Part shown: piece after piece, positions 23,629-29,813 of the stretch
Layout: each line of letters begins with the position of its first letter
Numbering within the stretch: position 1 is the stretch's first letter
Source of the DNA: an uncultured bacterium
GTDB taxonomy: Bacteria > Fibrobacterota > Fibrobacteria > UBA11236
DNA: 29,813 nucleotides
Direction of reading: 5' to 3'
Assembly (NCBI GenBank): GCA_966238865.1
Contig: CBILQL010000001.1
Coordinates: 1 to 29,813 of the forward strand
Notes under the pieces: generated by a model
Seen by the model: the letters and a program-made list of their open reading frames with translations, nothing else
Told to the model about the DNA's origin: nothing
Databases searched by the model: none
Made by a program: the position numbers and the translations under genes

Positions 23629-24246
23629 TCAAATCATCCCCAAGGCCGGATCCCGCTGGTACAGGTAGTCGAGGTCGCAGGCTTCCGCCGGCATCCAGTG
23701 CTTCTCCTTGTCCCACCATTTCACGTTGCAGCCGATGGCGTCGGTGCGGTCCAGGCGCGCCGGGCGGCCGGCCAACATGTCCTCGACCGCCTCCTCCAAT
23801 TCGCGGGTCTGCACCTTGGACGCGTCGCGGGGGCTGTTGTCCATGCGTCCGCTGTAGACGAGCCGGTCGTCCGGGCCGAAGAGGAAATAATGCGGGGTGC
23901 GTTCCGCGCCGTAGGACCGGGCCACCAACTGGGACTCGTCCCGGAGGGACAGCCAGCCGAAGCCCTTCTCGGCCATGCGCGCCTTCACGTGATCGAAGTC
24001 GTCGGCGGGGTGATCCTTGGTCTCGTTGCTGTGGATGGCGGTCATGGAAATGCCCAGGCTCTTCAGCCTGTCGAACAGGGCCACCATGCGATCCTCGCTG
24101 CCCACCACGTAGGGGCAATGGTTGCAGGTGAAGAAGATCAAGGTGCCCTTCGCGCCCTTCACGTCCGCGAAGGTGTGCGTGCCCCCGGTATGGCCGGGAA
24201 GCTTGAAATCCGGGGCCTGGGCCCCCGTGGGAAGTACGAAGCTCAT
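23629..24246 (-). CDS. Thioredoxin-family (AhpC/TSA, redoxin) protein
   Basis: APDFKLP, FTCNHCPYV (CxxC), YGAERTP, YSGRMDN, AIGCNVKW. ATG 24246 follows GAGGAG. Confidence 0.88.
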   Translation of the reverse strand: MSFVLPTGAQAPDFKLPGHTGGTHTFADVKGAKGTLIFFTCNHCPYVVGSEDRMVALFDRLKSLGISMTAIHSNETKDHPADDFDHVKARMAEKGFGWLSLRDESQLVARSYGAERTPHYFLFGPDDRLVYSGRMDNSPRDASKVQTRELEEAVEDMLAGRPARLDRTDAIGCNVKWWDKEKHWMPAEACDLDYLYQRDPALGMI

Positions 24247-24289
24247 GGTCGCGTCTCCTCGTTTTTCGATTGGCGTCGATGTCGTTGGT

Positions 24290-25285
24290 TCATTCGATTC
24301 CGATGGTCTTCCGGATCCGCTGCAGGAAGGGCGCGGCCTCGCTCCGGGCCCGGTCCCGCCCCTGCCGGAGCGTCGCATCCAGGTGGCCCGGATCGGCCAT
24401 GAGGCGCTGGTATTCCCGGCGCGGGCCCGCGAGCCTGGCGTTCAGGGCTTCGAAAAGCGCCTTCTTGGCCGCTCCCCAGCCCATGCCGCCGGCACGATAC
24501 GTCACCCGCAGGCGTTCCTCCTCCGGGCCTTCCACGAACAGCCGGTGCAGGGCGAAGACCGAGCTTTGATCCGGGTCCTTGGGCTCCTCCGGCGTCTGGG
24601 AATTGGTCACGATCTGGTTGACCCGCTTCTGCAGGGCCTTCTCCTCCAGGAAGAGGGGAATGGTATTGTCGTAGCTCTTGCTCATCTTGCGCCCGTCCAG
24701 GCCCAGGATGATCTTCACCTGATCGTCGATGCGCGGCTCCGGCAGCACGAACAGGTCGGCGCCATAGGCGTGGTTGATGCTGGCGGCGATGTCCCGTGCG
24801 ATTTCCAGGTGCTGCTTCTGATCCTGCCCCACCGGAACCACGTTGGCACGGAACATGAGGATGTCAGCGGCCATGAGCACGGGATAGGAGAAGAGACCCA
24901 TGTTGACGTTGAAATCCGGATCGTTCTTCGCCTCCTCGTTCTTGGCCACCGCGTCCTTGTAACTGTGGGCCCGGTTCATCAGGCCCTTGGGCGTGAAGCA
25001 GGCCAGGATCCAGGCCAGCTCCAGGATCTCGGGGATGTCGCTCTGGCGATAGAACACCGAACGCCGGGGATCGAGCCCCATGGCCAGGTAGGTAGCGGCG
25101 ATGCTGCGGGAATGCCCGCGCATCTTCTCCGCGTCGTGGACGGCGTTCAGGGCATGGTAATCGGCGATGAAATAGTAGGTGTCGAATTTCTCAGCCAGGG
25201 CCAGGGCGGGCTTGATGGCACCCAGCCAGTTGCCGAGATGGGGTTCACCGGTGGGTTTGATGCCTGTCAGCGCCCGCAATGCCAT
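24290..25285 (-). CDS. trpS: Tryptophan--tRNA ligase
   Basis: LTGIKPTGEPHLGN (HIGH), YPVLMAADI, VPVGQDQKQH, KMSKS. ATG 25285 follows AAGGAGG. Confidence 0.96.
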   Translation of the reverse strand: MALRALTGIKPTGEPHLGNWLGAIKPALALAEKFDTYYFIADYHALNAVHDAEKMRGHSRSIAATYLAMGLDPRRSVFYRQSDIPEILELAWILACFTPKGLMNRAHSYKDAVAKNEEAKNDPDFNVNMGLFSYPVLMAADILMFRANVVPVGQDQKQHLEIARDIAASINHAYGADLFVLPEPRIDDQVKIILGLDGRKMSKSYDNTIPLFLEEKALQKRVNQIVTNSQTPEEPKDPDQSSVFALHRLFVEGPEEERLRVTYRAGGMGWGAAKKALFEALNARLAGPRREYQRLMADPGHLDATLRQGRDRARSEAAPFLQRIRKTIGIE

Positions 25286-25573
25286 TCTCCATCCTCCTTG
25301 GCCGCAGGCCGCTCGCACGGCCTCGCTCCTTCGCCCCCATTCTGTCAGGGGTTCTTAAATCTAAAAAAAAGGGTGCTGTGCAAATGGGCAGGTGACTTGA
25401 AAGGAACTCATGGCGCCAGGTTTTTTCCGCCCTGCCGGGGGGATATTTTGTACCTTTGGAAAAAGCCTCCCGGACCATTTCCGGGCTGGCGCCGCTTTTC
25501 TTAAGTACTTGAATAACATGATCTTATCCCCAACGAATACAGTGCTTTCGAGGCTCACTGCGGGGCAACGGAT

Positions 25574-26884
25574 ATGAGCGTTCCCTCGCAACCCGAGTAC
25601 GGCATCGAGTACCTCGACACCCAGGAAGCCCTGGAAAAGCTGCTGGGCGTCCTCGATGGCACGGACACCGTCTTCCTGGACCTGGAAGCGGACAGCATGC
25701 ACCACTACTATGCCAAGATCTGCCTCATCCAGATCCTGGTCGGCGACACCTGCTATCTCGTCGATCCCCTCAGCAATATCCCCCTGCAGGGTGTCCTGGA
25801 CCGGCTGTCCGGGAAAATCCTGGTGCTCCACGGCGCGGATTACGATTTGCGCATGCTCTACCAGAGCTCGGGATTCCGTCCCCGCCAGGTGTTCGATACC
25901 ATGCTGGCGGCTCAGCTCCTGGGCAAGCCCGGCTTCGGCCTGGCGGCCCTGGTGCAATCCTATTTCGGCATCACCCTCAAGAAGGACCAGCAGAAGGCCG
26001 ATTGGTCCCAGCGGCCGTTGCCCGCGGGGATGCTCGAATACGGGGCCCAGGACACGTTCTTCCTGCCCGGCCTCTACCAGTCCCTGACCCGGGAATTGCA
26101 GGAGAAGAACCGGCTGTCCTGGCATGAAGAATGCTGCCGCGAGCTGGTGAAGGCCACCGCCACCAGGAAGGAGGTGGACCTCGAGAACAGCTGGCGCATC
26201 GAAGGCTCCTCCAAGATGACGCCCCGGCAGCTGGCGGTGCTCCAGGCCCTTTGGAAATACCGGGACGCGGCCGCCAAGGCGCAGGATCTCCCCAGTTACA
26301 AGATCCTGCCTTCCGATCTGCTGCTGCGTTTTTCCCTGGCCGTGCCGCCCTCCGGCGATCCTCCCCTATTGCCGGGACTTCCCTCCCGCCTCAATCCCAA
26401 GTTCAAGGCGGGATTCATGGAAACGCTCCAGGCGGCCCTCGAACTGCCCGCGGAGCAATGGCCGCAGCCCTTGAAAATCCCCCGCCGGACCACGCCCAGC
26501 CCCAGCCCTATCGTCCTGACCCATCTCAAATCCGTGCGCGATCGCATCGCCAATGAATTGGCCCTGGACCCTTCCCTGCTGGCCACCAAGTCCACGCTGA
26601 CCAATGTGGCCTTGACCGGTGCGGGATCGCGGCAGAAAATCGTGCATGCGGCGAAGTGGATGAAATGGCAGGAGGATCTCCTGCTGGAGCCCTGGCTGGC
26701 CAGGAGCGGTGACAGGATGTCAGAGAAAACCCCGGAGAAAGCCGCGGAGAAGCCTGTCGAGCGGGTCGTGGACAAGCCGGAGCGCATGGCGGATCGGGCC
26801 GGCGAAAAGCCGGAACGGAATGCAGTCCGTGCTCCGGAAGCCCCGAATACGGGCCGGGCCTGGGGCCGCCGTTCGCGCCCCTGA
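25574..26884 (+). CDS. rnd: Ribonuclease D family 3'-5' exonuclease with HRDC domain and a charged C-terminal tail
   Basis: LDLEAD (ExoI), LHGADYDL (ExoII), FDT, QKADWSQRPL, YGAQD (ExoIII), HRDC WKYRD...DLPSYKIL. Confidence 0.85.
   Translation: MSVPSQPEYGIEYLDTQEALEKLLGVLDGTDTVFLDLEADSMHHYYAKICLIQILVGDTCYLVDPLSNIPLQGVLDRLSGKILVLHGADYDLRMLYQSSGFRPRQVFDTMLAAQLLGKPGFGLAALVQSYFGITLKKDQQKADWSQRPLPAGMLEYGAQDTFFLPGLYQSLTRELQEKNRLSWHEECCRELVKATATRKEVDLENSWRIEGSSKMTPRQLAVLQALWKYRDAAAKAQDLPSYKILPSDLLLRFSLAVPPSGDPPLLPGLPSRLNPKFKAGFMETLQAALELPAEQWPQPLKIPRRTTPSPSPIVLTHLKSVRDRIANELALDPSLLATKSTLTNVALTGAGSRQKIVHAAKWMKWQEDLLLEPWLARSGDRMSEKTPEKAAEKPVERVVDKPERMADRAGEKPERNAVRAPEAPNTGRAWGRRSRP
26723..26818 (+). 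repeat. Degenerate 12-nt-period coding repeat (EKTP/EKAA/EKPV/ERVV/DKPE...EKPER)
   Basis: GAGAAAACCCCG, GAGAAAGCCGCG, GAGAAGCCTGTC, GAGCGGGTCGTG, GACAAGCCGGAG in tandem from 26723. Confidence 0.7.
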
Positions 26885-26997
26885 GCGCAGTTCGCATCCA
26901 GCGCCGCCTTCACCCCCAGAATGGCCGACTGGCCTCAAACCACCCCCAACAGCCCAAAGCCGCCGCCCAGGCTCCGGAAGCGGCAACCGCGTTCCTT

Positions 26998-27006
26998 TGC
27001 TATATT
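26998..27006 (+). promoter_or_regulatory. Putative extended -10 element for the tat operon
   Basis: TGCTATATT, 29 nt upstream of ATG 27036; GGAGGT RBS between. Confidence 0.6.
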
Positions 27007-27035
27007 TGAGTGGACTAATTCTCCGGAGGTCGCAC

Positions 27036-27245
27036 ATGCCGCATATCGGACCCATGGAACTTCTCCTGATTTTCCTGGTGGTTGTGCTGCTGTTCGGAGG
27101 CAAGAAAATCCCGGAAATCGCCAAGGGCCTGGGCAAAGGCATCCGCGACTTCAAGTCCTCGCTGGCCGGCGAAGACAAGGACGAGGCCAAGAACCTGGCC
27201 AAGCCCGAACAGAAGACCTCCCAGGATTCCGGCGCCAAGGGCTGA
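27036..27245 (+). CDS. tatA: Twin-arginine translocase subunit TatA/E
   Basis: MPHIGPMELLLIFLVVVLLFGGKKIPEIAKGLGKGIRDFK; GGAGGT RBS. Confidence 0.95.
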   Translation: MPHIGPMELLLIFLVVVLLFGGKKIPEIAKGLGKGIRDFKSSLAGEDKDEAKNLAKPEQKTSQDSGAKG

Positions 27246-27259
27246 GAAAGCGCCTTGCT

Positions 27260-27294
27260 TTCGCCCTCTTCTCCCGGGCGGGACGGAGGGCGAA
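27260..27294 (+). other. Stem-loop between tatA and tatC
   Basis: TTCGCCCTC (27260-27268) pairs with GAGGGCGAA (27286-27294), with an inner TCCC/GGGA stem. No U-tract follows. Confidence 0.6.
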
Positions 27295-27332
27295 GGTCGG
27301 ATTGACGCTTCCGGATCAACCTCCTTTCCGCC

Positions 27333-28118
27333 TTGCCCGTGACCTCCCCCGTGTCCCAGACTCCCTCGCCGACCAGCCTCCCGGATAGCGCCCCGGAGAT
27401 GACGTTCTGGGACCACGTGCAGGAGCTCCGGTCCCGCCTCATCCGCATCCTCATCGGCCTGGCCGCGGGATCGGGCGTGGCCTATTTCTACTGGGAGAAG
27501 ATCTGGGCCCTTCTGGCCCAGCCCATCACCAAGCAGCATCTTGAGGTCGGCTTCATCGCCACGAGCCCGATGGAGACCCTGGTCACCAGCCTCAAGATGT
27601 CGCTGATCTCAGGCGCCATCCTTTCCATCCCCTTCACCATGTGGCATGTCTGGCGCTTCCTGGCCCCGGCCCTGTTCAGCAACGAGCGCAAGCTCTTCCT
27701 CATCGCCTTCTTCTCCTCGGTGGTGATGTTCGCCGTGGGCGCCGCCTTCGCCTATTTCGCCGTGCTTCCGGCCGGGCTCTCCTTCCTCGCCAACTACGCC
27801 CAGGGCGGCGTCACCCAGAGCTGGAAGCAAGGGGACTTCGCCGCCTTCATCAGCCAGTTCATGCTCGCCTTCGGGGTGATCTTCGAGCTTCCCGTGGCCG
27901 CCTTCGTGCTCAGCAACATGGGGCTCATCACCGCCAAGGGCATGTGGAGCTTCTTCCGCTACGCCGTCATCATCATCTTCATCGTCGCGGCCCTGCTCAC
28001 CCCCGGCCCCGATCCCGTATCCCAGCTCATGATGGCGGCGCCGCTCCTCGTCCTCTACCTCCTCTCCATCGGCATCTGCGCGCTGTCGGAGAGGAAGAAG
28101 GCGGAGGCCGAGGCGTGA
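27333..28118 (+). CDS. tatC: Twin-arginine translocase subunit TatC (start uncertain: 27333 TTG or 27399 ATG)
   Basis: MTFWDHVQELRSRL, WRFLAPALFSNER, FGVIFELPV, AALLTPGPDPVSQLMMAAPL. Confidence 0.95.
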   Translation: MPVTSPVSQTPSPTSLPDSAPEMTFWDHVQELRSRLIRILIGLAAGSGVAYFYWEKIWALLAQPITKQHLEVGFIATSPMETLVTSLKMSLISGAILSIPFTMWHVWRFLAPALFSNERKLFLIAFFSSVVMFAVGAAFAYFAVLPAGLSFLANYAQGGVTQSWKQGDFAAFISQFMLAFGVIFELPVAAFVLSNMGLITAKGMWSFFRYAVIIIFIVAALLTPGPDPVSQLMMAAPLLVLYLLSIGICALSERKKAEAEA

Positions 28119-28984
28119 TTTTCGATTCCCTGGGCCTCGGCGAGCTGGGCGTCATCGCCGTGCTCATCATCCTCCTGGTCGAGCCCAAGCAGCTGGGGCG
28201 CATCATGAAGGCCCTGGGGCGCTTCAAGCGCAAGGTGGGCCAGATCCAGAACGAGGTGAAGTCCCAGCTCGACGCCATCGCCGCGGTGGAGGAGGCCAAG
28301 GAGGCCGAGGACAAACGGCATGCGGACAAGGACGCCATGCGGCGCTGGGCCCGGGAGCAGGTGCAGGGGCTCACCGCCGCCGCCAAGGACGAAGCGGCCC
28401 TGGCCATCGCCAACACCCTGGCCGAATGGCCCGGCTACCGGCATGCCAAGGTGGTGTCCTGCTTCGTGGGAACCCTGGACGAGCTCGATACCCTGCCCAT
28501 CCTGCGCCGCATCCTCGCGGACGGGAAGACCCTGCTGGTGCCCTATGTCCGGCCGGCGGGCAGCGAGGGCATCCCGGGCAAGAGCCTGGGGATGGCCGCC
28601 ATCGTCGACCCGGACGCCGATTTGACCGAAGGTGCCTTCCGCATCCTGGAGCCCCGGGAGGAGTTGCGGGACAGCGGGACGACCCCGGCGCCCGATCTGG
28701 TGCTGGTTCCAGGGCTTTGCTTCGATCCCCGGGGTGGACGGCTGGGCAAAGGCTTGGGATTTTATGACAAATACCTGTCCGCCCCGCCGGGGATGGACGC
28801 GGCCAAGGTAGGCCTCTGCTTCGACGTGCAAATCAGCCAGAAAAATTTAGCTTTGGAATCCCATGACCAGCTGCTGGACGCCGTGCTCTCCGAGAAACGT
28901 TTCCTTGTCCTGGCGCCGCCCCGACCGGAATGGGCGGGCCACTCCCCCGCCCCATCCGCTTCGGGGAGCGCTTCCGGGGCCTGA
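28115..28984 (+). CDS. In-frame fusion: TatB-like N-terminal module + 5-formyltetrahydrofolate cyclo-ligase
   Basis: GTG 28115 overlaps the tatC stop (GTGA). Residues 1-~55 (FDSLGLGELGVIAVLIILLVEPKQLGRIMKALGRFKRK) are TatA/B-like. From ~K72 the sequence is YgfA/MTHFS-like (KDAMRR, ELDT, LLVP, GAFRILEP, DLVLVPGLCFDPRGGRLGKGLGFYDKYL, HDQLLD). No stop lies between the two parts. Confidence 0.85.
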   Translation: MIFDSLGLGELGVIAVLIILLVEPKQLGRIMKALGRFKRKVGQIQNEVKSQLDAIAAVEEAKEAEDKRHADKDAMRRWAREQVQGLTAAAKDEAALAIANTLAEWPGYRHAKVVSCFVGTLDELDTLPILRRILADGKTLLVPYVRPAGSEGIPGKSLGMAAIVDPDADLTEGAFRILEPREELRDSGTTPAPDLVLVPGLCFDPRGGRLGKGLGFYDKYLSAPPGMDAAKVGLCFDVQISQKNLALESHDQLLDAVLSEKRFLVLAPPRPEWAGHSPAPSASGSASGA

Positions 28985-29017
28985 CGCAATCCATACGCTG
29001 TCCGGCGGGAGGGCGGC

Positions 29018-29813
29018 ATGAAGGCCATACTCGCGCTCGAGGACGGATCCGTCTTCGAAGGGGAAAGCTTCGGCGCCGAGAAGGAAGGCGCGGGCGAGGT
29101 CTGCTTCAACACCTCCATGACCGGATACCAGGAGATCCTCACCGATCCCTCCTATTCCGGCCAGATGGTCTGCCTCACCTATCCCGAGATCGGCAATTAC
29201 GGCATCAACCTGGAAGACGTGGAAAGCAAGCGTATCCAGGCCGCCGGGCTCATCGTCAAGAACGTCTGCGACTACCCCTCCAATTGGCGGGCCGGCTCCG
29301 GCGAGGCCGCCGCCGGCAAGACCGTGCGGCTGTCCGACTACCTGAAGTCGCAGGGCATCCCGGGGATTTCCGGCATCGACACCCGGCGCCTGGTGCGCAT
29401 CCTGCGGGAGACCGGCGCCAAGAACGGCGTCATCGTGATCGGCGAGGTGGACGCCAGGGCCGCCGTGGCCAAGGCCAAGGCCGTGCCCGACTTCTCCGGC
29501 TTCGATTTCGTGCGCAAGGTCACGGTCTCCGGCACGGAGAACTGGTCGGAGCGGGAGCATGCCCTGAGCTTCCGCCCCATCCCGGACCGCAAGCCGCGCT
29601 ATACCATCGCCGCCATCGACTACGGCGCCAAGTACAACATCCTCCGCAAGCTCCGCACCCTGGGCGCCGAGGTGGTGCGCTTCCCGGCGGACGCCAAGCC
29701 CGAAGAGGTGCTGGCCTGCAATCCCGACGGCGTGTTCCTCTCCAACGGCCCCGGCGATCCGGCCCAGCTGGACTACGCCGTGGACACCATCAAGGATCTC
29801 CTGGGCAAGCGGC
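29018..29813 (+). CDS. carA: Carbamoyl-phosphate synthase small subunit, 5' part; runs off the right edge
   Basis: Manual translation: MKAILALEDGSVFEGESFG, GEVCFNTSMTGYQEILTDPSY, GISGIDTRRL, IDYGAKYNILR, FLSNGPGDP. GGAGG RBS. Confidence 0.96.
   Translation, partial: MKAILALEDGSVFEGESFGAEKEGAGEVCFNTSMTGYQEILTDPSYSGQMVCLTYPEIGNYGINLEDVESKRIQAAGLIVKNVCDYPSNWRAGSGEAAAGKTVRLSDYLKSQGIPGISGIDTRRLVRILRETGAKNGVIVIGEVDARAAVAKAKAVPDFSGFDFVRKVTVSGTENWSEREHALSFRPIPDRKPRYTIAAIDYGAKYNILRKLRTLGAEVVRFPADAKPEEVLACNPDGVFLSNGPGDPAQLDYAVDTIKDLLGKR

What the first reader, a model, noticed from the sequence alone, without database searches (positions are those of the whole stretch)
28115..28984. TatB fused in frame to 5-formyltetrahydrofolate cyclo-ligase
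Seen: in a tatA-tatC-X operon, gene X starts with a TatA/B-type TM helix + amphipathic helix. It continues through a charged helical linker (AVEEAKEAEDKRHAD) with no stop into a complete 5-FCL domain with the RLGKGLGFYD motif. Established: TatB normally has a disordered cytoplasmic tail, and 5-FCL (YgfA/MTHFS) is a soluble folate-salvage enzyme with no known role in protein export. Inference: the enzyme is tethered to the cytoplasmic face of the Tat translocase, either a passenger fusion of neighbouring genes or a real link between one-carbon status and export. An in-frame ATG at 28337 with a weak AAGGA upstream could also yield a free enzyme isoform. I do not recall this architecture being described but cannot exclude database examples.
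Basis: partly seen in the sequence, partly recalled or inferred. Interest (0 to 1): 0.75.

Follow-up and report, generated by a model that had tools for sequence, protein, structure and literature searches.

The report
TatB subunit fused to folate-repair enzyme
The third gene of a tatA-tatC operon really does join a TatB-type membrane subunit of the folded-protein export machine to a complete folate-repair enzyme; the fusion is conserved across the phylum Fibrobacterota but looks like two independent functions on one chain, not a new coupled mechanism.

Summary
Observation confirmed. ORF 28115-28984 (289 aa, GTG overlapping the tatC stop, GGAGG 7 nt upstream) has three parts. Residues 1-56 are a TatA/B-type transmembrane helix, hinge and amphipathic helix. 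Residues 57-71 are a poorly conserved charged linker. Residues 72-260 are a full 5-formyltetrahydrofolate cyclo-ligase (5-FCL) with the ATP and folate motifs intact.

It is not an assembly error. An independent sample carries the junction unchanged, and hundreds of database proteins share the architecture, all labelled only "5-FCL". The fusion occurs in nearly every family of Fibrobacterota, always directly after tatC. None of 80 5-FCL loci sampled elsewhere (79 from other phyla) has it.

Natural split forms decide the reading. In several genera a stand-alone 55-60 aa TatB-like gene stays after tatC while a free 5-FCL sits elsewhere, and genomes without tatC have an unfused enzyme. So the N-terminus is most likely the phylum's TatB and the enzyme the housekeeping 5-FCL, fused without obligate coupling.

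The internal ATG at 28337 is not conserved and would remove the conserved Lys72.

No paper describing the fusion was found. First readers of this scan noted the same fusion on two other genomes.

The parts
27036..27245 (+). tatA (69 aa), first gene of the operon
   Evidence: PF02416 E 3e-18 and TIGR01411 E 2e-17. GGAGG lies upstream of the ATG.
27333..28118 (+). tatC (the longest ORF starts at TTG 27333; ATG 27399 is an alternative start)
   Evidence: PF00902 E 8e-64 and TIGR00945 at 209 bits. T223 and Q231 align with E. coli TatC T208 and Q215 and are invariant in the phylum alignment A3.
28103..28107 (+). Shine-Dalgarno-like GGAGG, 7 nt before the GTG start of the fusion gene
   Evidence: Read directly from the sequence.
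28115..28984 (+). the fusion gene, 289 codons plus stop; its start overlaps the tatC stop (GTGA)
   Evidence: In 40 related loci the 5-FCL ORF lies directly after tatC. Starts were placed in 25 of them (19 phylum-wide): overlap of 4, 1 or 8 nt or a 1-nt gap in 21, larger gap or overlap in 4.
28115..28282 (+). TatB-like module, residues 1-56: transmembrane helix 8-21, helix break at E23-P24, amphipathic helix from residue 24
   Evidence: The AlphaFold2 model places helix 8-21, a break at 22-23 and a helix from 24. The hydrophobic moment is 1.4-1.9 over residues 25-58. The module aligns without gaps to solved TatA and TatB chains. G7 and E10 are invariant across the phylum; D4, P24, K40 and Q45 are invariant within the order. 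Mean pairwise identity is 0.67 for residues 1-26, against 0.59 for the enzyme core.
28283..28327 (+). charged helical linker, residues 57-71 (AVEEAKEAEDKRHAD)
   Evidence: It is the least conserved segment, with mean identity 0.31 in the order and 0.12 in the phylum. Its length varies from almost nothing to more than 60 residues in other families.
28328..28894 (+). 5-formyltetrahydrofolate cyclo-ligase domain, residues 72-260
   Evidence: PF01812 E 2e-35 and TIGR02727 at 117 bits, above the cut-off. Solved 5-FCL structures 1sou, 2jcb and 3hxt match at E 1e-30 to 1e-32, with K72 and R76 aligned to human K10 and R14. It is the only 5-FCL in the genome.
28739..28768 (+). signature motif RLGKGLGFYD, residues 209-218
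   Evidence: R209, G211, G213 and D218 are invariant across the phylum. The motif aligns with GNRLGRGKGYYD of human MTHFS.
28337..28339 (+). in-frame internal ATG (Met75), with AAGGA 4 nt upstream
   Evidence: Present in the sequence. The residue is M, L, W, E or T in relatives, and a start here would delete the conserved K72.
28895..28981 (+). non-conserved Pro/Ala/Ser-rich C-terminal tail, residues 261-289
   Evidence: Mean identity is 0.37 in the order and 0.16 in the phylum, and the model confidence is lower here.

Best explanation
One polypeptide carries two independent functions.

Residues 1-56 are the TatB subunit of a TatA-TatC-TatB twin-arginine translocase. The short transmembrane helix would sit against TatC, with Glu10 bonding to the TatC polar site (T223 and Q231, equivalent to E. 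coli T208 and Q215). The amphipathic helix would lie on the cytoplasmic face of the TatBC cup.

Residues 72-260 are the cell's only 5-formyl-THF cyclo-ligase. It would use ATP to convert the inhibitory 5-formyl-THF back to 5,10-methenyl-THF while tethered a few nanometres below the membrane.

The fusion probably arose near the base of Fibrobacterota, when tatB was joined to a downstream 5-FCL gene. It was tolerated because the part of TatB after the amphipathic helix is disordered and dispensable in model systems. It was later undone several times.

What is shown: the domain content, conservation, synteny, the split forms and the intact motifs. What is inferred: TatC binding, enzyme activity, and the absence of cross-talk between the two halves.
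For: 1. The fusion gene is start-stop coupled to tatC here. In all 40 related loci where 5-FCL follows tatC it carries the TatB-like N-terminus; starts were placed in 25, mostly overlapping the tatC stop.

2. tatB (TIGR01410) is the most frequent Tat-family match among fused members: 16 of 19, best E 2.6e-11.

3. E10 is invariant, and the TatC residues that bind TatB E8 in the cryo-EM structure (PMC13323110) are invariant too.

4. The transmembrane helix and hinge are at least as conserved as the catalytic core: 0.67 against 0.59. A generic membrane anchor would not be expected to be that constrained.

5. Natural fission forms exist. In genera g19, g40 and g48 a stand-alone 55-60 aa TatB-like gene stays directly after tatC, and no 5-FCL lies in the DNA fetched beside it. 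For g40 and g48 the free 5-FCL was located on other contigs.

6. Every tatC-lacking genome inspected has an unfused 5-FCL.

7. Free 5-FCLs within the phylum nest among fused ones in the enzyme tree. Starred branches force at least 5 changes of state.

8. The own genome has no other TatB-like gene, nor do 5 complete or near-complete genomes with the fusion. The own genome also has a single 5-FCL, as do most genomes of the phylum.

9. The enzyme scores above its equivalog cut-off and keeps K72, R76 and the G-x-G-x-G-x-YD motif.

10. In E. coli a TatB of about 50 residues still supports export (PMC9436932, citing Lee 2002). Only TatB residues 1-63 are ordered in (TatBC)3 (PMC13323110).

11. The genome encodes at least one protein with a canonical SRRKFLK signal, a pirin.
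Against: The window's own N-terminus falls below the curated Tat family cut-offs.

In this order the hinge Gly is replaced by Glu, Lys, Asp, Gln or Asn.

TatA-TatC systems without any TatB exist, so TatB function is not forced. The Fibrobacter-like genus g21 runs tatA-tatC alone.

That genus keeps a transmembrane remnant on its 5-FCL even in genomes without tatC. This hints that membrane anchoring may matter to the enzyme in its own right.

Conservation across a whole phylum could also reflect a selected coupling. No binding, export or enzyme assay exists.
Confidence: 0.65

Rival explanations
1. Anchor only. The N-terminus descends from TatB but no longer works in export. It simply tethers 5-FCL to the inner membrane, and the translocase runs as a TatA-TatC system.
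For: The hinge Gly is lost in this order, and the Pfam and NCBIfam scores are below their cut-offs. The Fibrobacter-like genus g21 keeps a transmembrane helix and FGS hinge remnant on 5-FCL in genomes with no tatC. TatAC-only systems are known.
Against: Stand-alone mini-TatB genes are retained after tatC once the enzyme has left. The N-terminal module with its amphipathic helix was never seen away from tatC. E10 and its TatC partner residues are invariant. Conservation of the transmembrane helix and hinge equals that of the catalytic core.
Confidence: 0.12
2. Functional coupling. The enzyme domain is a working part of the translocase. It could replace the chaperone-like quality-control tail of TatB, or it could let ATP and folate status modulate substrate binding under the (TatBC)3 cup.
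For: The fusion is retained across nearly all families of a phylum. In E. coli the membrane-extrinsic part of TatB contributes to folding quality control (PMC9436932). The enzyme starts only about 15 residues after the amphipathic helix, and the model shows one continuous helix 24-84. 5-FCL is also listed among the neighbours of tatCy in Bacilli (PMC3827258).
Against: There were repeated natural fissions, and both parts were kept. The linker is the least conserved segment, and its length varies from almost nothing to more than 60 residues. The catalytic motifs are those of an ordinary 5-FCL, and it is the only copy. Tat transport needs no nucleotide (established knowledge).
Confidence: 0.12
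3. The main enzyme form is free. Internal initiation at ATG 28337, or proteolytic release, yields soluble 5-FCL plus a short TatB.
For: An in-frame ATG with AAGGA 4 nt upstream exists. Natural split forms show that both products are viable.
Against: Met75 is not conserved. A start there removes K72, which aligns with the ATP-binding K10 of human MTHFS, and unfused relatives begin upstream of that Lys. The 4-nt spacing is short. No data support cleavage.
Confidence: 0.08
4. Assembly or annotation artefact: a lost stop codon or a frameshift between two separate genes.
For: The genome is an 84%-complete metagenome-assembled genome in 902 contigs.
Against: Contigs from a second sample are identical across the junction. 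More than 200 database protein clusters (90% identity) and roughly 45 representatives of 50%-identity clusters show the same architecture. The architecture also occurs in complete single-contig genomes.
Confidence: 0.01

Closest known systems
TatB of the E. coli-type TatABC translocase (TIGR01410; NMR structure 2MI2; cryo-EM (TatBC)3 structures 9DZZ, 9E01 and 9E02, described in PMC13323110)
   Same: It has an N-terminal short transmembrane helix with a conserved Glu (E10, equivalent to E8), a helix-breaking Pro, and a long amphipathic helix. It is encoded in the tat operon. The TatC partner residues equivalent to T208 and Q215 are conserved.
   Different: The gene order is tatA-tatC-tatB. In this order the hinge Gly is replaced and the Pro is shifted (VEPKQLG in place of FGSKELP or LGPQRLP). 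The disordered C-terminal tail is replaced by a folded 21-kDa enzyme. The score is below the curated family cut-off.
5-formyltetrahydrofolate cyclo-ligase / MTHFS (E. coli YgfA; TIGR02727; structures 1SOU, 2JCB and human 3HXT/3HY3)
   Same: The domain is full length, scores above the equivalog cut-off, keeps the K-x-x-x-R and G-x-G-x-G-x-YD motifs, and is the sole copy in the genome.
   Different: It carries a membrane-anchoring TatB module in front, whereas characterised 5-FCLs are soluble monomers.
Stand-alone mini-TatB genes of sister Fibrobacterota (L070, L071, L073, L075, L076)
   Same: They have the same N-terminal module and the same position, start-stop coupled to tatC.
   Different: They end just after the amphipathic helix (about 55-60 aa), and 5-FCL is encoded elsewhere. 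They are the natural split version of this gene.
Other 5-FCL fusion proteins
   Same: 5-FCL is a frequent fusion partner, and it can be membrane-attached.
   Different: The partner here is a protein-export subunit with no known folate link, not a folate transporter or folate enzyme.

Membership tests
TatA/TatB family (Pfam PF02416; TatB = TIGR01410) | Score above the curated family cut-off | tested here: not met
   The window protein scores 14.8 bits on PF02416 against a cut-off of 21, and 26.5-30 bits on TIGR01410 against 56.5. Fused relatives score better (tatB E 2.6e-11, PF02416 E 3e-7), but I did not check whether they reach the cut-offs.
TatA/TatB family (Pfam PF02416; TatB = TIGR01410) | N-terminal single short transmembrane helix with a conserved polar residue near its start (E8 in E. 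coli TatB) | tested here: met
   The model places a helix at residues 8-21. E10 is invariant in alignments A1 and A2 and aligns with the polar residue of solved TatA and TatB chains.
TatA/TatB family (Pfam PF02416; TatB = TIGR01410) | Gly-Pro or FG hinge followed by an amphipathic helix | tested here: inconclusive
   The Pro (P24), the helix break and a strongly amphipathic helix 25-58 are present. The hinge Gly is replaced by E, K, D, Q or N in this order. Other classes of the phylum keep FFGSKELP or LFGPKG.
TatA/TatB family (Pfam PF02416; TatB = TIGR01410) | Genomic and evolutionary association with tatC | tested here: met
   The gene is start-stop coupled to tatC here. In all 40 related loci where 5-FCL follows tatC it carries this N-terminus; starts placed in 25, mostly overlapping the tatC stop. 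The module is absent from 5-FCL in the tatC-less genomes inspected. It is kept as a separate gene after tatC in the split lineages.
TatA/TatB family (Pfam PF02416; TatB = TIGR01410) | Binds TatC and is needed for Tat export | not testable with these tools
   The complex prediction gave no answer. Biochemistry or genetics is needed.
5-formyltetrahydrofolate cyclo-ligase (PF01812; TIGR02727) | Score above the curated equivalog cut-off over the full domain | tested here: met
   TIGR02727 scores 117 bits against 84.9, covering model positions 1-182 of 182. PF01812 scores 122.7 bits against 27.
5-formyltetrahydrofolate cyclo-ligase (PF01812; TIGR02727) | Conserved nucleotide and folate motif residues (N-terminal K-x-x-x-R; G-x-G-x-G-[FY]-Y-D) | tested here: met
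   K72 and R76 align with human K10 and R14. R209 to D218 align with R145 to D154. R76, R209, G211, G213 and D218 are invariant. The residue roles come from my knowledge of the MTHFS structures.
5-formyltetrahydrofolate cyclo-ligase (PF01812; TIGR02727) | ATP-dependent conversion of 5-formyl-THF to 5,10-methenyl-THF | not testable with these tools
   An enzyme assay or ygfA complementation is needed.

The most novel reading that the evidence does not exclude
The enzyme domain is a functional part of the translocase. Three 5-FCL domains would hang under the (TatBC)3 receptor. They would either take over the substrate quality-control role of the TatB tail or make Tat export responsive to ATP or one-carbon status. 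That would be the first nucleotide- or metabolite-binding module built into a Tat core complex.
Probability: 0.08. Interest if true: 0.85.

Novelty: new variant of a known kind. Interest (0 to 1): 0.5.

Why it matters
TatB is normally a small protein with a disordered tail. Here nearly every family of a phylum builds its candidate TatB with a folded 21-kDa enzyme starting about 15 residues after the amphipathic helix. That is exactly where the new cryo-EM structures show substrates docking.

This gives Tat researchers a natural test of how much bulk the cytoplasmic face of (TatBC)3 tolerates. It also tests whether the TatB tail is needed for quality control, because fused, split and TatB-less relatives are all available for comparison.

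For annotation, hundreds of database entries called only "5-formyltetrahydrofolate cyclo-ligase" hide what is probably the TatB of these organisms. Pathway reconstructions for Fibrobacterota would therefore wrongly report TatB as missing.

If the two halves are independent, as I think, this is a tidy example of a long-lived neutral fusion with repeated fission. It would not be new biology.

Tried and rejected
Complex prediction of TatC with residues 1-70 of the fusion, using my own alignments, returned "no answer" (score 0.00). It is not evidence for or against binding.

The Rfam scan of 24000-29813 found nothing real. In particular there is no 6S RNA, which precedes ygfA in E. coli. The promoter and terminator scan was uninformative.

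The search for related loci with the phylum-wide alignment A2 failed because it had no conserved stretch. With A1 it returned 79 unfused 5-FCL loci from other phyla and one free-form Chitinispirillia locus. None of the 80 had tatC, a TatA/B-like N-terminus or a hydrophobic extension. That is a useful negative sample, not an exhaustive search.

The representative search lists only the best 150 hits. It shows about 45 fused clusters, and every fused sequence inspected was of the Fibrobacterota type. It cannot exclude weaker-scoring fusions elsewhere. The listing of cluster members gave no organism names.

The crude twin-arginine scan (36 RR hits against 2 KK) is biased by the high G+C content. 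Only the SRRKFLK pirin and a GRREFLG lipoprotein-like signal look convincing.

A 304-nt skip (28034 to 28339) appeared in one low-depth contig of run X5. Only 23 letters lie on one side of it, so I rejected it as a probable graph artefact or a different organism.

The artefact reading and the internal-start reading were both considered and are ranked low (see rival explanations).
Full report
**1. Observation**

The window holds tatA (27036-27245), tatC (27333-28118) and a third ORF, 28115-28984, on the + strand. The third ORF starts at a GTG that overlaps the tatC stop (GTGA), with GGAGG 7 nt upstream. Its 289-aa product (P0001) divides as follows.
- Residues 72-260 match 5-FTHF_cyc-lig (PF01812) at E 2e-35. 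They also match the NCBIfam equivalog TIGR02727 at 117 bits, above its 84.9-bit cut-off.
- The first ~60 residues match the Tat families only below their curated cut-offs. PF02416 gives 14.8 bits against 21. TIGR01410 (tatB) gives E 5e-7 and 30 bits against 56.5.
- Even so, the N-terminus aligns without gaps to solved TatA and TatB chains. E10 falls on their conserved polar residue and P24 falls at the hinge.
- The AlphaFold2 model (pLDDT 88) has a helix at 8-21, a break at 22-23, and one long helix 24-84 that runs straight into the first helix of the enzyme.
- Residues 25-58 are strongly amphipathic.

**2. It is not an artefact**

Contigs from a second sample of the same study span 27900-28489 with no difference or indel. 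About 90 protein clusters at 42-87% identity share the full-length architecture. All are named only "5-formyltetrahydrofolate cyclo-ligase" and come from Fibrobacteria or Fibrobacterota MAGs.

A distant fused member from a Chitinivibrionales-type genome finds more than 1000 proteins. The best 120 all carry both PF01812 and PF02416. The ESM Atlas holds a cluster that was automatically named with both domains. At 50% clustering, about 45 fused representatives appear among 1.84 billion proteins.

**3. Distribution**

In 296 species genomes of the phylum, near-full-length matches occur in most families of all classes.

I fetched 60 loci and scored them with profiles built from the two halves.
- All 40 loci in which 5-FCL lies directly after tatC carry the TatB-like N-terminus on the same ORF. 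I placed start codons in 25 of them (19 from across the phylum). In 21 the start overlaps the tatC stop by 4, 1 or 8 nt or follows it by 1 nt. Three show gaps of 216-292 nt, which probably reflect ORF-boundary error, and one start was placed 34 nt inside tatC.
- All 20 loci in which 5-FCL is not beside tatC lack the module.
- One of the 40 fused loci (L009) comes from the unpublished genome G253.

The tatC-less genomes that I inspected all have an unfused enzyme. These include G084, G089, G015, G018, G042, G044, G055, G228 and the Fibrobacter-like G190, G164 and G107.

None of 80 further 5-FCL loci has tatC nearby, a TatA/B-like N-terminus or a hydrophobic extension. Of these, 79 come from other phyla (Bacteroidota, Planctomycetota, Verrucomicrobiota, Omnitrophota, Spirochaetota, Bacillota and others) and one from a Chitinispirillia genome carrying the free form.

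**4. What the N-terminus is**

Several lines of evidence point to TatB.
- Across the phylum the module is either close to the canonical pattern (GLGFSEIL...FFGSKELPxFIRE, or GFQEIL...LFGPKG) or, in the window's order, remodelled to IFDSLGxGE...LVxPKxLG.
- tatB is the commonest Tat-family match among fused members: 16 of 19, best E 2.6e-11. TatA/E models match fewer.
- G7 and E10 are invariant.
- In the recent (TatBC)3 structures, TatB E8 bonds to TatC T208 and Q215. Only TatB residues 1-63 are ordered there (PMC13323110). The equivalent TatC residues here, T223 and Q231, are invariant in the phylum.
- The transmembrane helix and hinge (mean pairwise identity 0.67) are at least as conserved as the enzyme core (0.59). 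The linker is far less conserved at 0.31. A generic anchor would not show this pattern.
- No other TatB-like gene exists in the window's genome or in five complete or near-complete genomes that carry the fusion.

**5. The decisive natural experiment**

In three genera the 5-FCL is free while tatC is still present: g19 of family f6, and g40 and g48 of family f13. In each, a stand-alone gene of about 55-60 aa sits directly after tatC. It has the same N-terminal sequence as the fused proteins and stops just after the amphipathic helix. No 5-FCL remnant lies downstream in the DNA fetched, although one g19 contig ends shortly after the gene. For g40 and g48 the free enzyme was located on other contigs.

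So when the fusion breaks, the TatB-like piece is kept beside tatC and the enzyme is kept elsewhere. Two conclusions follow.
- The N-terminal piece has a Tat-linked function of its own.
- The enzyme does not need the tether.

A maximum-likelihood tree of the enzyme domain (79 rows) places the free forms of the phylum inside clades of fused forms. Well-supported branches force at least five changes of state. The tree does not resolve whether the fusion arose once or once per major clade.

Two free copies group with other phyla and may be acquired genes: the second copy in G238 and the f14 form.

**6. What the enzyme half is**

The enzyme half matches solved 5-FCLs (1sou, 2jcb and human 3hxt) at E 1e-30 to 1e-32 over the whole domain. 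K72 and R76 align with human K10 and R14. R209 to D218 align with the GNRLGRGKGYYD loop. These residues are invariant or nearly so.

It is the only 5-FCL in this 84%-complete genome, and most genomes of the phylum show a single match. I therefore infer an active housekeeping enzyme that works while membrane-tethered.

**7. The free-isoform idea**

Met75 is replaced by L, W, E or T in relatives. Unfused relatives start upstream of the conserved Lys. A product starting at Met75 would lack K72. A minor isoform cannot be excluded without protein data, but it is not a conserved feature.

**8. Coupling versus independence**

Evidence for coupling:
- the fusion has been retained across the phylum;
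- the TatB tail has a reported role in folding quality control in E. coli (PMC9436932);
- 5-FCL is listed among the neighbours of tatCy in Bacilli (PMC3827258).

Evidence against coupling:
- fission has happened repeatedly;
- the linker is variable, ranging from almost nothing in genera g20 and g22 to more than 60 low-complexity residues in f5-type proteins;
- the enzyme is an ordinary, sole-copy 5-FCL;
- an E. coli TatB of about 50 residues still exports substrates (PMC9436932, citing Lee et al. 2002).

One observation remains unexplained. The Fibrobacter-like genus g21 has moved its 5-FCL away from tatC. It has lost the amphipathic helix, the linker and the first enzyme helix. Yet it keeps an N-terminal hydrophobic helix ending in LLIFGS, even in genomes with no tatC. 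In the tree this form nests inside fused f6 proteins with 99/93 support. It may be a leftover, or the enzyme may have come to depend on being anchored.

**9. Novelty**

Full-text searches found no description of this architecture. The databases hold it in quantity but label it as the enzyme only. First readers of this scan noted the same fusion on two other genomes.

It is a new variant of known parts, not a new kind of system.

My odds are:
- 0.65 for a TatB plus an independent enzyme;
- 0.12 for an anchor only;
- 0.12 for functional coupling;
- 0.08 for a mostly free enzyme;
- 0.01 for an artefact.

Noticed in passing
L016-L020 (genomes G190, G107, G164, G166, G110; Fibrobacter-like genus g21): The 5-FCL here is 194-206 aa and lies away from tatC. 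It keeps an N-terminal hydrophobic helix ending in LLIFGS(S/R)P, which looks like a TatB transmembrane-helix and hinge remnant. It lacks the amphipathic helix, the linker and the first enzyme helix with the K/R motif. The remnant is present even in genomes with no tatC.
   Followed up: partly
L070, L071, L073, L075, L076 (directly after tatC): These loci carry stand-alone 55-60 aa TatB-like genes that end right after the amphipathic helix. They are natural split forms of the fusion, and gene callers are likely to miss them because of their size.
   Followed up: partly
L074 and L053 (genome G238, family f7): This genome has both a fused tatB::5-FCL with a very divergent enzyme half (branch length 2.2) and a second, free 5-FCL that groups with other phyla. 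This may be a replacement in progress.
   Followed up: no
L060 (genome G278, family f8): The 5-FCL here is preceded by about 245 residues of low-complexity Pro/Ala/Val/Glu-rich sequence in place of the TatB module. No tatC was found in this 92%-complete genome.
   Followed up: no
window 28181-28198 (residues 23-28): In the window's order the canonical hinge G-[ST]-K-E-L-P reads E-P-K-Q-L-G. The Gly is lost and the Pro and Gly positions are effectively swapped. The effect on the TatB hinge is unknown.
   Followed up: partly
window 28034-28339, run X5: One low-depth contig from a soil metagenome skips 304 nt, from the end of tatC to the internal ATG. Only 23 letters lie on one side of the skip. 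It is probably an assembly-graph artefact or a related organism.
   Followed up: no
G000 contig C17:9103-10269 (-) and C3:816-1232 (+): These are candidate Tat substrates in the same genome. One is a pirin (two cupin domains) with an SRRKFLK signal. The other is a small protein with a GRREFLG...AGC lipoprotein-type signal.
   Followed up: partly
window 25574-26884 (+) and 29018-29813 (+): The flanking genes are an RNase D-like protein (3'-5' exonuclease plus HRDC domain) upstream and carA (carbamoyl-phosphate synthase small chain) starting 34 nt downstream of the fusion gene. carA may belong to the same transcript.
   Followed up: partly
literature, PMC3827258: A 2013 survey of tatC neighbourhoods lists 5-formyltetrahydrofolate cyclo-ligase among the genes near tatCy in Bacilli. 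That would be an unexplained second association of the two genes in an unrelated phylum.
   Followed up: no
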